A stretch of 64,000 nt of DNA, from contig CM022673.1 in NCBI GenBank assembly GCA_012295275.1, positions 21,514,001 through 21,578,000 on the forward strand. The letters are read 5' to 3'. The DNA is from Chrysomallon squamiferum. Lineage: Eukaryota > Animalia > Mollusca. Under the pieces are notes generated by a model, which had not been told where the DNA came from, did no database searches, and saw nothing but the letters and a program-made list of their open reading frames with translations. The stretch's first letter is position 1. The number at the start of each line of letters is the position of its first letter. Both the position numbers and the translations under genes were made by a program. Shown piece by piece: positions 623-27,140 of the stretch.

Positions 623-3600
623 CATGGCCTTTGGTCTTCTTGGGTGCAGTAGAAACGTGTTTAGTTTCTGTTGCTGTCGTAATGTATGTGTTTGTCGCTG
701 CTGGAATTATAAATAAATTTCAAGATATTAAAACAACAGCAGCAACAACAAAACCTCCCGAAACATATACACGTAGTCATATATCGACGTACTTTTATAC
801 CTACATAAATAATTAACATACACATATGCACGAAATTCACATATCTTATACACCCAAACTAAATAAATTCATAAAAAAAATAAACTCCGGTACTTTTTAA
901 AAAGAGGGAATATTGGTATTTACTAATATCTCCTTATTTATTATAAAAGAAATTAGTTAAAATTACAAGCTGGGTTGTTATAATAGTTTATATCAGATAT
1001 ATACTTACTCGTATCACATCTGTTGTCTGAGATAAGAGTGACAATATGCTGTTGAACTATCGAGTATGATTTGATGTCGCAAACAACCTTGACTGTTTCC
1101 TCCAAACAACTGTTGTAAACTGGAATCATCCTTGGTAAAGAAACTACACATTAGGTGTTTCAGTCAAACGCGAAATGTGTCTAATCTGTTTAGATTAGAA
1201 TTATTATTTAAAATATTATAATATTTGAGAATATAAATTTCGTGATCATAAATGTCTCGTTCTCTCATTCTCTCATTATCTATCTGTCCATCCATCCAAA
1301 AATCCTTGCATTTATCCATAAACCTGTTTATCTTTCTCTCTCCACTTCATTTTCATCCTCTCTGTCTCTCGTTCTTTATTCATCCATCCATCTATTTTTT
1401 TTTTTTTTTTTTTTTTATAAACTTTATTTTCATAAAAACATTTACATACACAAATAATCTACTTACAAACATATATTTGAAGATTCCGTTGTTAGCAGTG
1501 ATAACTTGCAGTCGTTGAAACGTTGAAAGCATGCAGCACCTGAAAATCGAAACAAATTGATTCCGTTTGCATGACCGATAGAAATGTGTATTTTTCATAA
1601 ATATATATTTGGTGTAAGGTATAAATAGCCTACATTCATAGTATATATTTTTTTAGTTTGCTAGCGAAAAATCTTTGATAATAATCAAATTTAAAAGTGA
1701 TGAAACACAGTCATTAATACTGGAAGCTGATAAAAGTATTTTTCGTTGAATCACATTGTTAAATTAATTAGTTAGATTGATAATATGATAAGTTTGCAGT
1801 GATGTATAAGTTTATTTTTTTATTTACATTTCAGTGTTAGGTCGACGATTATTCACGATATTACTGTATTACTGTCATCATCTAGTCAAAGAACAAGTAA
1901 AATGTAAGGATCTGAACTGCACTGTGTTTTTAGCATATTTCTAAAAATTAATATGAACGTTTTGTTACAGATGACACACGCACACACACACACACAATGA
2001 AAACACCACCACAGACGTCATCAGAACATAAGCTATTATTACAACAACATCATCATCACGACTGCTACTATTACTGTTACATAAACTTTATCTGCTTCCC
2101 ATCATGACTTACCAGTTATTCTTGTAGTTGATGTTGTCGTTTCTAAAAACAAAAAAGTAAATATCAGAAGGCGGTTTCTTTCTTTCTTTAGTTAGTTAGT
2201 TGTTATCAACATCATTGTTTATTTATTTGTGTAGTATCTGTATTTTTGATTTTCATATATTTAACGCACATAATTTGTTCACTGTTACAATAACACCATA
2301 CCGACAAGAAGATATAATATAAACTATGAAACAATTACCAGTAAAAACTTGATAATGTTGTTTCATTTTTGTTGTTGTTGTTTTTTGTTTTTTTCGCACT
2401 TGTCTCTCGGTTCATACATTGTTTCTTAGCATAAAATAACATACATACATACATACATACATACATACATACATACATACATACATATACATACCATACC
2501 ATGCCATACTATGCCGTATCCATACCATAGCATACACAGATACATTCACCTATTAAGATGGAAATACGTAAACTGCTTCATCATAAAACTTTTTATCAAG
2601 TGATCTCTCTACCCAGCTATACGCTAATAAAATATACAACAAACCAAAGTTACATAAAACTTTTTATCAAGTGATCTCTCTACCCAGCTATACGCTAATA
2701 AAATATACAACAAACCAAAGTTACATAAAACTTTTTATCAAGTGATCTCTCTACCCAGCTATACGCTAATAAAATATACAACAAACCAAAGTTACATAAA
2801 ACTTTTTATCAAGTGATCTCTCTACCCAGCTATACGCTAATAAAATATACAACAAACCAAAGTTACATAAAACTTTTTATCAAGTGATCTCTCTACCCAG
2901 CTATACGCTAATAAAATATACAACAAATCAAAGTTACATAAAACTTTTTATCAAGTGATCTCTCTACCCAGCTATACGCTAATAAAATATACAACAAACC
3001 AAAGTTACATCCGTGTGTTTGAGTCAGGTTGTCAGCTGTGCTAGTGATATATGTAGTGGCGTTATGCAGAGATGCAGCACTACAGTAGACTTGTGTGTCA
3101 CTTAAACACGTCTGATAGAGAGCCAAATACCTGAATAAGTAGACAGGATAATATCTCATTATATTAATAACCATGTACATTATTATTATCATCAGTAGCA
3201 TATCATCAACGTTATGATCGAGCTTCAGCTACGCCGCCGCTAATTGGCGCAACGAACAACATACCATCCGGCCAGCATCCCGCGTGTCACTCGTTTACTT
3301 CACATGGGTAACTAGCCGCGGAAGCATCTCTGTTGTGCTGTGCTCGCTTTTTGTAGTATTTTGCCAAATTTCTTTTTTCTGGCCATGGATCCTAAGAAAG
3401 TGAGTGCAAAGGACAGTGCTGAGAAGCAGAAGTTGATGATGTCCATTGAATTAAAGCTTGATTTCATAGAAAAACACGAACGAGATGTGCGTGTAGTCGA
3501 CTTGGCTAAGCAGCACGAGCGTAGTACTTTTACGATACTGATGGTTTTTTGGGGTGGTTTTTTGGGGGGGATGGAACATATTAATGGTATATCATTTAAT

Positions 3601-27140: not shown

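What the first reader, a model, noticed from the sequence alone, without database searches (positions are those of the whole stretch)
623..27140. Tandem pair of genes built from arrays of an RGM-N/neuritin-like cysteine domain
Seen in sequence: two adjacent same-strand genes contribute 11 domains with the core C-x6-9-C-x9-20-C-x8-C-x7-8-C-x20-25-C. Every domain is split by a phase-2 intron immediately after the third Cys and bounded by phase-1 introns, indicating shared exon-module ancestry despite low identity. Established knowledge (recalled): the RGM N-terminal domain is a disulfide-linked three-helix bundle that binds BMPs, with the pattern C-x8-C-x7-C...YHS...I...NCS; RGMs and neuritin are GPI-anchored and carry one copy. 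Domain 2A (HCKAVMNFLHCLNGLACQCGLVRNVEVYRSMTSFINDYNRNNCS) follows this pattern closely. Inference: a lineage-expanded family of multivalent RGM-N-like surface proteins lacking the RGM vWF-D/GDPH region, possibly BMP/TGF-beta co-receptors or traps, or adhesion/recognition molecules.
Basis: partly seen in the sequence, partly recalled or inferred. Interest (0 to 1): 0.85.

Follow-up and report, generated by a model that had tools for sequence, protein, structure and literature searches.

The report
Snail surface proteins of RGM-like repeats
Two neighbouring spliced genes of an animal (likely a snail) are built from 8 and 3 repeated exon pairs encoding small cysteine-rich domains predicted to fold like the BMP-binding tip of repulsive guidance molecules; relatives of the larger gene occur across snails and as trace shell proteins but lack the BMP-gripping residues, so they likely work as many-armed tethers on the shell-forming surface rather than as BMP co-receptors.

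Summary
Two minus-strand genes (A 27140-9679, B 7166-623) encode 8+3 domains, each split by a phase-2 intron after Cys3. RNA contigs confirm 9 of 9 gene B introns (adding two missed micro-exons and a domain-skipping isoform) and 2 of 28 gene A introns. Gene A domains carry 8 Cys, not 6, and come in odd/even pairs. Gene A belongs to an uncharacterised gastropod family (limpets, abalone, vent snail, caenogastropods; 4-10 domains, GPI-like tails) with no Pfam match. A homolog domain is predicted as a three-helix bundle; RGM N-domains are the only PDB sequence hits (weak, E 0.11) and rank 1-2 structurally (Z 7.7-7.9, tied with generic bundles), cysteines in register. RGM's BMP-contact Gly, Leu and His are absent (0 of 10 window domains). 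Family members are in limpet (trace) and vent-snail shell proteomes, and one is mantle-specific. Verdict: the RGM-N-like fold is supported, the BMP co-receptor role is unlikely by RGM's mechanism, and a mantle-surface tether or recognition role is the best guess. The window's gene A copy has a frameshift that the RNA allele likely lacks. The scan had not noted this family elsewhere. Interest 0.45.

The parts
9679..27140 (-). Gene A, 29 exons: signal peptide, 8 eight-Cys domains as four odd+even units, GPI-like tail
   Evidence: splice sites and frame; colinear with gastropod homologs, 27% over 760 aa to P0001 and 36% to P0002; RNA joints
27092..27140 (-). Gene A exon 1: ATG and hydrophobic signal-peptide-like stretch
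   Evidence: hydropathy
23759..25201 (-). Domain A1 (odd): exons 25201-25084 (GC donor), 24472-24342, linker 23800-23759
   Evidence: RNA joint 24342|23800
21760..22869 (-). Domain A2 (even): exons 22869-22752, 22374-22250, linker 21798-21760
19835..21564 (-).
16985..18844 (-). Domain A4 (even): exons 18844-18730, 18192-18068, linker 17014-16985
15153..16675 (-). Domain A5 (odd): exons 16675-16570, 16096-15969, linker 15645-15601, 54-nt spacer exon 15206-15153
13605..14600 (-). Domain A6 (even): exons 14600-14486, 14154-14027, linker 13640-13605
   Evidence: an RNA piece equals exon 14486-14600 exactly
11593..13030 (-). Domain A7 (odd): exons 13030-12934, 12510-12383, linker 12031-11990, 54-nt spacer exon 11646-11593
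9961..11108 (-). Domain A8 (even): exons 11108-10994, 10607-10457 (151 nt, frameshifted in the window), linker 9990-9961
   Evidence: RNA joint 10994|10607
10494..10551 (-). Tandem duplication in exon 27: one full 33-nt unit plus a second copy of only 25 nt, giving a frameshift and a premature TGA in the window's copy; the RNA allele likely holds whole, in-frame copies
   Evidence: contig ends and lengths (inference)
9679..9782 (-). Gene A last exon: small residues, spacer, hydrophobic tail, stop (GPI-signal-like)
   Evidence: an RNA piece starts at this acceptor
623..7166 (-). Gene B, 10 exons in the window (271 codons open): signal peptide, 3 six-Cys domains, Thr-rich stalk; last exon lies outside the window
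7121..7166 (-). Gene B first coding exon (ATG, signal-peptide-like)
   Evidence: RNA joint 7121|6227
5071..6227 (-). Domain B1: exons 6227-6119, 5204-5071
4500..4526 (-).
   Evidence: RNA joints; frame
3000..4038 (-). Domain B2: exons 4038-3975, 3130-3000
2113..2142 (-).
   Evidence: RNA joints 2142|3000, 1539|2113 and 700|2113
1009..1539 (-). Domain B3: exons 1539-1467, 1130-1009; skipped in one RNA isoform
623..700 (-). Thr-rich stalk exon of gene B

Best explanation
Both genes are spliced and encode signal-peptide proteins made of repeated cysteine domains that are predicted to be disulfide-locked three-helix bundles of the RGM-N/neuritin type and that likely sit on the cell surface by a GPI anchor, where they would act as many-armed tethers or recognition molecules between the shell-forming mantle epithelium and the proteins of its extracellular matrix, not as RGM-style BMP co-receptors. 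SHOWN: exon structure, splicing of gene B, a domain-skipping isoform, a gastropod family for gene A, loss of RGM's BMP-contact residues, and shell/mantle data for other family members. PREDICTED: the fold (modelled on the Gigantopelta homolog, not on the window's own protein) and the GPI anchor. INFERRED: a fourth disulfide from the extra CxC cysteine to the linker-exon cysteine; odd+even domains acting as one unit whose number (2 to 5) sets reach and valency; shedding of the ectodomain, which would leave traces in the shell; mantle expression of the window's own genes; the binding partner, which is unidentified. Gene B is likely an older, more diverged offshoot of the same exon module that tunes its valency by splicing.
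For: Splicing. Family: 8 proteins at E<=0.001 among 1.84 billion, the 7 named ones all gastropod, all uncharacterised; hydrophobic C-terminal tails with 0-5 residues after them in 7 of 7 checked. Fold: single-domain model pLDDT 85.9 with three long helices; RGMB-N Z 7.9, rmsd 3.0, 69 of 74 aligned, rank 1 of 48,161 for the 4-domain model and Z 7.7, rank 2 for the single domain; a profile of 8 odd domains hits 4 of 177,635 PDB sequences at E<=10, all 4 RGM N-domains, with Cys2-Cys6 in register for RGMA. Against BMP binding: G/L/H in 0/0/0 of 10 window and 0/1/0 of 50 homolog domains; residues defined in PMC7354924. Tissue: Lotgi1|238415 (= P0006) in 6 of 6 protein-group tables of the limpet shell matrix, 2-7 unique peptides, but only 6.5e-7 of iBAQ; a Gigantopelta protein described by that hit in 3 of 3 shells; one of two scaly-foot snail genes of its orthogroup has mantle 9.09 against at most 0.26 in four other tissues. 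12 N-glycosylation sequons, near-neutral charge.
Against: No binding partner or adhesion was tested. The fold match is tied with unrelated three-helix bundles (FRIGIDA 8.1, MIT domains 7.0-7.4), Foldseek gives no E<=0.001 and the sequence hit is E 0.11. The second scaly-foot gene of the orthogroup is not mantle-specific (gill 1.09, mantle 0.15), and which family gene the window's gene A corresponds to is not established. Neither scaly-foot gene id appeared in that species' shell or sclerite lists in the stored (cut) supplement. Trace abundance is also what bystander proteins show (PMC4094399). No Haliotis laevigata shell hit in the 12 of 27 files searched. Gene B has no homolog found and no tissue data. 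22 of 28 gene A introns have no RNA support at either end. The window's gene A copy is truncated before its tail.
Confidence: 0.45

Rival explanations
1. Multivalent co-receptor or trap for a TGF-beta-family ligand (BMP2/4-Dpp, activin, GDF) on the mantle, using a rewired version of the RGM site in the odd domains.
For: Closest solved relative is RGM-N. A3, A5, A7 and the Gigantopelta and Haliotis D3 keep R-[DN]-x-x-[VL]-Y at the equivalent loop, with D/N on RGM's D/N and Tyr on RGM's stacking His. BMP receptors act in the mollusc mantle (PMC5569090, abstract in search listing only).
Against: Gly, Leu and His absent in 10 of 10 window domains; A3/A5/A7 carry Arg at the Gly site and A5/A7 Pro at the Leu site, the changes (G99R, L101P) that impair BMP2 binding of RGMC; the loop is two residues longer and is not conserved across the family (aromatic at the His site in 16 of 50 homolog domains).
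Confidence: 0.13
2. Neuritin-like auxiliary subunit: a GPI-anchored helical protein that binds and tunes a membrane receptor, channel or transporter in the same cell.
For: ESM Atlas lists an NRN1 cluster among look-alikes of P0002 (score 0.76, a lead only). Neuritin has the same six-Cys spacing and a GPI anchor (recalled, no call).
Against: No Pfam NRN1 hit; 3-10 tandem domains are unlike single-domain neuritin; no partner known.
Confidence: 0.15
3. Immune or symbiont-recognition surface receptor of exposed epithelia (mantle, gill).
For: Fast divergence (25-37% identity among gastropods), repeat-number variation, a gill-biased paralog in the scaly-foot snail.
Against: Low gene number; modest protein polymorphism (gene B, 5 non-synonymous to 4 synonymous differences against 592/182 sites); no signalling tail.
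Confidence: 0.14
4. Structural shell-matrix protein that directly shapes mineral growth.
For: Family members detected in shells of two distant gastropods; one mantle-specific member.
Against: 6.5e-7 of the limpet shell iBAQ, far below the 0.1% the authors use for major proteins; not acidic or low-complexity (DE 10.6%, KR 10.3%); GPI-like tail.
Confidence: 0.08
5. The likeness to RGM-N is convergent: a generic three-helix bundle with coincidental cysteine spacing.
For: Z scores tie with MIT and other bundles; 13-14% identity; Pfam RGM_N only E 0.082 for 1 of 8 domains.
Against: Sequence profile and structure point independently to the same family; 4 of 4 PDB sequence hits are RGM-N; five cysteines align in order and the structural ranges put Cys1 and Cys6 at the matching ends.
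Confidence: 0.2

Closest known systems
Repulsive guidance molecule N-terminal domain (RGMA/RGMB/hemojuvelin; Pfam PF06535; PDB 6z3m, 4ui1, 4uhy)
   Same: Predicted three-helix bundle; cysteines in register; signal peptide and GPI-like tail.
   Different: 3-10 tandem copies instead of one; no vWF-D/GDPH part; two extra Cys in gene A domains; BMP-contact RG[DN]L-x-YH residues absent; below Pfam's cut-off.
Uncharacterised gastropod proteins Lotgi1|238415 (ESP00930), XP_041367592 (Gigantopelta), KAK6191597 (Patella), XP_046342966 (Haliotis), KAK7461568 (Batillaria), KAL8590939 (Nucella)
   Same: Same 8-Cys odd+even unit, signal peptide and hydrophobic tail; gene A is a member (BLASTP E down to 6e-83).
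   Different: Gene A has the D3-D4 unit three times where Gigantopelta and Haliotis have it once; gene B matches none of them significantly (best E 0.07 in a 14-sequence set).
Neuritin (NRN1, PF15056) and invertebrate six-Cys helical families DUF1397 (PF07165) and DUF19 (PF01579)
   Same: Language-model look-alikes of P0002 include DUF1397 (0.82) and NRN1 (0.76) clusters and unnamed arthropod clusters (0.84-0.85) (leads only). Tandem DUF19 domains in nematodes are recalled, not checked.
   Different: No Pfam hit to any of them.
Molluscan shell matrix proteins
   Same: Family members recovered from shell extracts; one mantle-specific gene.
   Different: Trace abundance, ordered disulfide domains, no acidic or low-complexity tracts, likely membrane-anchored.

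Membership tests
RGM family | N-domain is a three-helix bundle held by disulfides | tested here: met
   Predicted only, on homolog P0002; RGMB-N Z 7.7-7.9, rmsd 3.0-3.3, tied with generic bundles; disulfide pairing not seen
RGM family | Six cysteines in RGM spacing | tested here: met
   Cys2-Cys6 aligned to RGMA; spacings; gene A adds two more Cys
RGM family | RGD/RGN loop with Gly, Leu and helix-3 His that contact BMP/GDF (PMC7354924) | tested here: not met
   RG[DN] 0 of 11 window and 0 of 49 homolog segments; G/L/H 0/0/0 of 10 and 0/1/0 of 50 when anchored on Cys6
RGM family | vWF-D (RGM_C) domain with GDPH autocleavage site (recalled) | tested here: not met
   No GDPH in 14 of 14 homolog sequences nor in the spliced window proteins read; no Pfam RGM_C hit; gene B's last exon is unseen
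RGM family | Pfam RGM_N curated cut-off | tested here: not met
   Best E 0.082 in 1 of 8 single domains; none in 8 whole proteins
RGM family | GPI anchor | tested here: inconclusive
   Hydrophobic tail without cytoplasmic part in gene A exon 29 and 7 of 7 homologs; no GPI predictor or experiment
RGM family | Binds BMP/GDF ligands and neogenin | not testable with these tools
   No BMP or neogenin sequence was available to the complex tool
Neuritin (NRN1) | Pfam PF15056 match | tested here: not met
   No hit; Atlas lead 0.76 only
DUF19 / DUF1397 / GDNF-GAS1 | Pfam match to PF01579, PF07165 or PF02351 | tested here: not met
   No hit; DUF1397 Atlas lead 0.82
Lotgi1|238415-like gastropod family (gene A) | Signal peptide + even number of 8-Cys domains alternating odd/even + hydrophobic tail | tested here: met
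   (odd clade 100/99 support)
Lotgi1|238415-like gastropod family (gene B) | 8-Cys domains with CxC and significant sequence match | tested here: not met
   6 Cys, no CxC; BLASTP best E 0.07; weak profile kinship for B1 and B3 only
Major shell matrix proteins | At least 0.1% of the shell proteome | tested here: not met
   Limpet member 6.5e-7 of iBAQ (threshold from PMC4094399); the window's own proteins were not measured
Major shell matrix proteins | Mantle-specific expression | tested here: inconclusive
   1 of 2 scaly-foot snail orthogroup genes is mantle-specific; tissues of the window's RNA runs are unknown

The most novel reading that the evidence does not exclude
An unrecognised, gastropod-wide branch of the RGM-N fold that lost the neogenin-binding half, multiplied the ligand-binding bundle into 2-5 paired units and sits on the mantle as a multivalent presenter or sink for a TGF-beta-family morphogen through a rewired loop (Tyr in place of RGM's His), with valency tuned by repeat number and splicing: a shell-patterning co-receptor of a kind not described in animals.
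Probability: 0.12. Interest if true: 0.8.

Novelty: new variant of a known kind. Interest (0 to 1): 0.45.

Why it matters
It gives a fold and a candidate ancestry to a gastropod protein family that databases and two shell-proteome studies list only as uncharacterised, and shows the RGM-N/neuritin bundle reused as an exon-pair building block in arrays of 3 to 10. A trace shell protein kept from limpets to vent snails and whelks is a reasonable candidate for the poorly known link between mantle cells and the matrix they lay down. If a TGF-beta ligand turned out to be the partner, it would supply a direct test of how BMP signals are shaped at the shell-forming edge. As it stands the function is inferred and related six-Cys helical proteins are common in invertebrates, so the interest is moderate.

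Tried and rejected
No whole genome is held for this window, so copy number and gene B's last exon could not be read. Half-domain queries gave nothing useful in Pfam, PDB sequences (chance hits only), the word-indexed protein search or the ESM Atlas. The search for related loci needed a longer query than one exon and was not run. The whole-protein profile found no RGM in the PDB, and Foldseek found no E<=0.001 for either model. The Atlas structure search of P0002 gave only TM<0.4 rows. A homodimer job on P0002 191-389 gave no answer (score 0.00; no evidence either way). No RNA holder was listed by the index; the RNA evidence comes from added runs of the same organism. Contig depths were not used to rank expression. 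No further copies of either half-domain occur elsewhere in the window. Allele differences show no excess of protein change (small numbers; only listed rows). Literature searches found no paper that describes this family or links it to RGM-N; the library holds only CC-licensed papers and preprints. The scan's earlier notes hold no look-alike. Rejected: artefact or chance ORFs (RNA joints, homologs); true RGM orthologs (motif and vWF-D absent); gene A as a fixed pseudogene (the RNA allele is likely in frame); major structural shell protein (trace abundance). The window's own spliced proteins were not folded or scanned against Pfam as whole domains, so fold and family statements rest on homologs for gene A and on cysteine spacing, intron phase and a weak profile match for gene B.
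Full report
Observation. Reading the minus strand and refining splice sites by script gives gene A, 29 exons from ATG at 27140 to a stop at 9679, and gene B from ATG at 7166 to 623. Spacings are C1-C2 5-8, C2-C3 9-20, C3-C4 8, C4-C5 7-8, C5-C6 20-25. 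Gene A domains have eight cysteines: a C-x5-C-x-C in the second exon and one more at the end of a 30-45 nt third exon. Each of the 8 scores above 200 of 200 Cys-fixed shuffles against a profile of the other seven. Gene B domains have six; against a 57-domain family profile, B1 is reached by 0 of 500 shuffles, B3 by 7 and B2 by 116, so common ancestry of A and B rests on shared intron positions plus a weak signal in two of three domains. No other copies lie in the window.

RNA. Three RNA runs of the same organism were laid on gene A's region and two on gene B's. One 768-nt contig of run X4 shows all 9 gene B introns, reveals micro-exons 4526-4500 and 2142-2113 (frame open for 271 codons), and another contig joins 2113 to 700, skipping domain B3. 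The transcript continues past 623 into an exon not in the window. For gene A, 2 of 28 introns are seen as joints (24342|23800 and 10994|10607) and four more exon ends are met by contig pieces (23759, 14600, 14486, 9782); the rest rests on splice signals and colinearity with homologs. Exon 27 is 151 nt in the window and shifts the frame, stopping at codon 798. It holds a 33-nt unit followed by 25 nt of a second copy. In run X3 one contig ends at 10522, a 60-nt contig matches 10548-10494 and then departs, and a third carries 98 letters ahead of exon 29. These lengths are what whole 33-nt copies would give in a 31-mer graph, for an exon of 128 or 161 nt, both in frame. I infer that the frameshift belongs to the window's haplotype or assembly and that the usual protein has about 845-856 residues ending in a hydrophobic tail.

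Family. A profile of the 11 second-half exons found 8 proteins at E<=0.001 among 1.84 billion. Seven are named and all are gastropod and uncharacterised: Patella (two genes), Lottia, Haliotis, Gigantopelta, Batillaria, Nucella; a second search added a fuller Batillaria model and an unnamed protein. They have 4-10 domains, hydrophobic tails and no Pfam match. Gene A aligns with them over most of its length (27% over 760 residues to P0001; 36% to Gigantopelta P0002). A tree of 60 domains separates odd from even domains (100/99); A2 groups with Gigantopelta and Haliotis D2 (97/89), A4, A6 and A8 with their D4 (87/86), and A3, A5 and A7 with their D3 (86/27, weak) (P0003, P0007 and near-identical isoforms were left out). 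Gene A therefore looks like a four-domain ancestor with its second unit tripled. The query was short, so non-gastropod relatives may have been missed. Gene B has no homolog found.

Fold. The window's spliced proteins were not folded; P0002 stood in. The four-domain model (pLDDT 73.8) and a single odd domain (pLDDT 85.9, three long helices) were searched. RGMB-N ranked 1 of 48,161 (Z 7.9, rmsd 3.0, 69 of 74 residues) and 2 (Z 7.7, rmsd 3.3, 70 of 74), RGMC-N 4 and 6, but FRIGIDA, Sec63 and MIT bundles tie within 1 Z unit and Foldseek has no significant hit. Independently, a profile of 8 odd domains hit 4 of 177,635 PDB sequences at E<=10, all RGM N-domains (best E 0.11), with Cys2-Cys6 aligned for RGMA; Pfam RGM_N appears at E 0.082 for 1 of those 8. 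The ESM Atlas adds DUF1397 and neuritin as weak leads. Each signal is weak; together they make kinship with RGM-N likely (about 80%).

BMP site. PMC7354924 (passages read) places the RGM-ligand contact in the RGD/RGN loop Gly and Leu and a helix-3 His, and notes that G99R and L101P in RGMC impair BMP2 binding. Anchored on Cys6 with the offsets, these three residues occur in 0, 0 and 0 of 10 scorable window domains and 0, 1 and 0 of 50 homolog domains. A3, A5 and A7 have Arg at the Gly site, and A5 and A7 Pro at the Leu site. For the rival view: these three domains keep D/N and an aromatic residue in register, and the loop is two residues longer, so a rewired site is not excluded.

Tissue context. 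The limpet member Lotgi1|238415 (P0006) is in 6 of 6 protein-group tables of the Lottia shell matrix with 2-7 unique peptides (PMC3374290, supplement rows; not named in the main text) but makes up 6.5e-7 of iBAQ (PMC4094399, supplement rows and passages). A Gigantopelta protein that the authors describe by that hit is in 3 of 3 shells; its orthogroup holds two scaly-foot snail genes, one mantle-specific (9.09 against 0.02-0.26) and one low and gill-biased (PMC11871041, supplement rows and passages; I did not see their sequences). Neither of those two ids appeared in shell or sclerite lists of the stored file, and 12 of 27 Haliotis laevigata files gave no hit (PMC6003135). Gene A is neither acidic nor low-complexity and has 12 sequons.

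Mechanism. The best reading is a GPI-anchored, glycosylated rod of disulfide-locked bundles on the mantle epithelium, binding matrix or neighbouring-cell proteins with several arms, and reaching the shell in traces by shedding (0.45). Shown are the gene structure, family, motif loss and the shell and mantle data for relatives; the fold and anchor are predicted; tissue of the window's genes, pairing of odd and even domains, shedding and the partner are inferred. Rivals: neuritin-like receptor subunit 0.15, immune or symbiont recognition 0.14, TGF-beta-family co-receptor 0.13, structural shell protein 0.08.

Novelty. Not an RGM by membership (motif, vWF-D and Pfam cut-off fail) but likely built from the same fold. 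Eight literature searches (listings only) found no description of the family, and the scan had no look-alike. The proteins are already in databases as uncharacterised, and six-Cys helical proteins are widespread in invertebrates (tandem DUF19 is recalled).

Noticed in passing
window 24344-24495, an 89-nt exon (candidates 25252-25340 or 25372-25460) and 27034-27400, + strand: An RNA contig of run X3 (record 19) fits a spliced antisense transcript over gene A exons 3 and 1: plus-strand AG and GT signals sit at its piece ends. One contig at depth 6; strand inferred from splice signals.
   Followed up: partly
window 1-441 versus about 2586-3032: The satellite array of roughly 70-base units and the end of gene B exon 3130-3000 are duplicated at the window's start (97.8% over 447 nt); the exon copy there has stops in all three frames, a decayed domain half.
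   Followed up: partly
window 25084: Gene A intron 2 uses a GC donor; not seen as an RNA joint.
   Followed up: no
window 33217-30626, - strand: Intact-looking MFS / sugar-transporter-type gene upstream of gene A (Pfam MFS_1).
   Followed up: partly
window 36195-37584, + strand: Last exons of a stand-alone biotin-protein-ligase N-terminal (BPL_N) gene that stops right after the domain.
   Followed up: partly
window 48990-49212, + strand: First exon of a gene with a signal-peptide-like start and two cysteines, phase-1 donor; no Pfam hit; further exons not traced.
   Followed up: no
window 29690-30360: Minisatellite of about 33-base units between the transporter gene and gene A that gives spurious cysteine-rich frames.
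   Followed up: no
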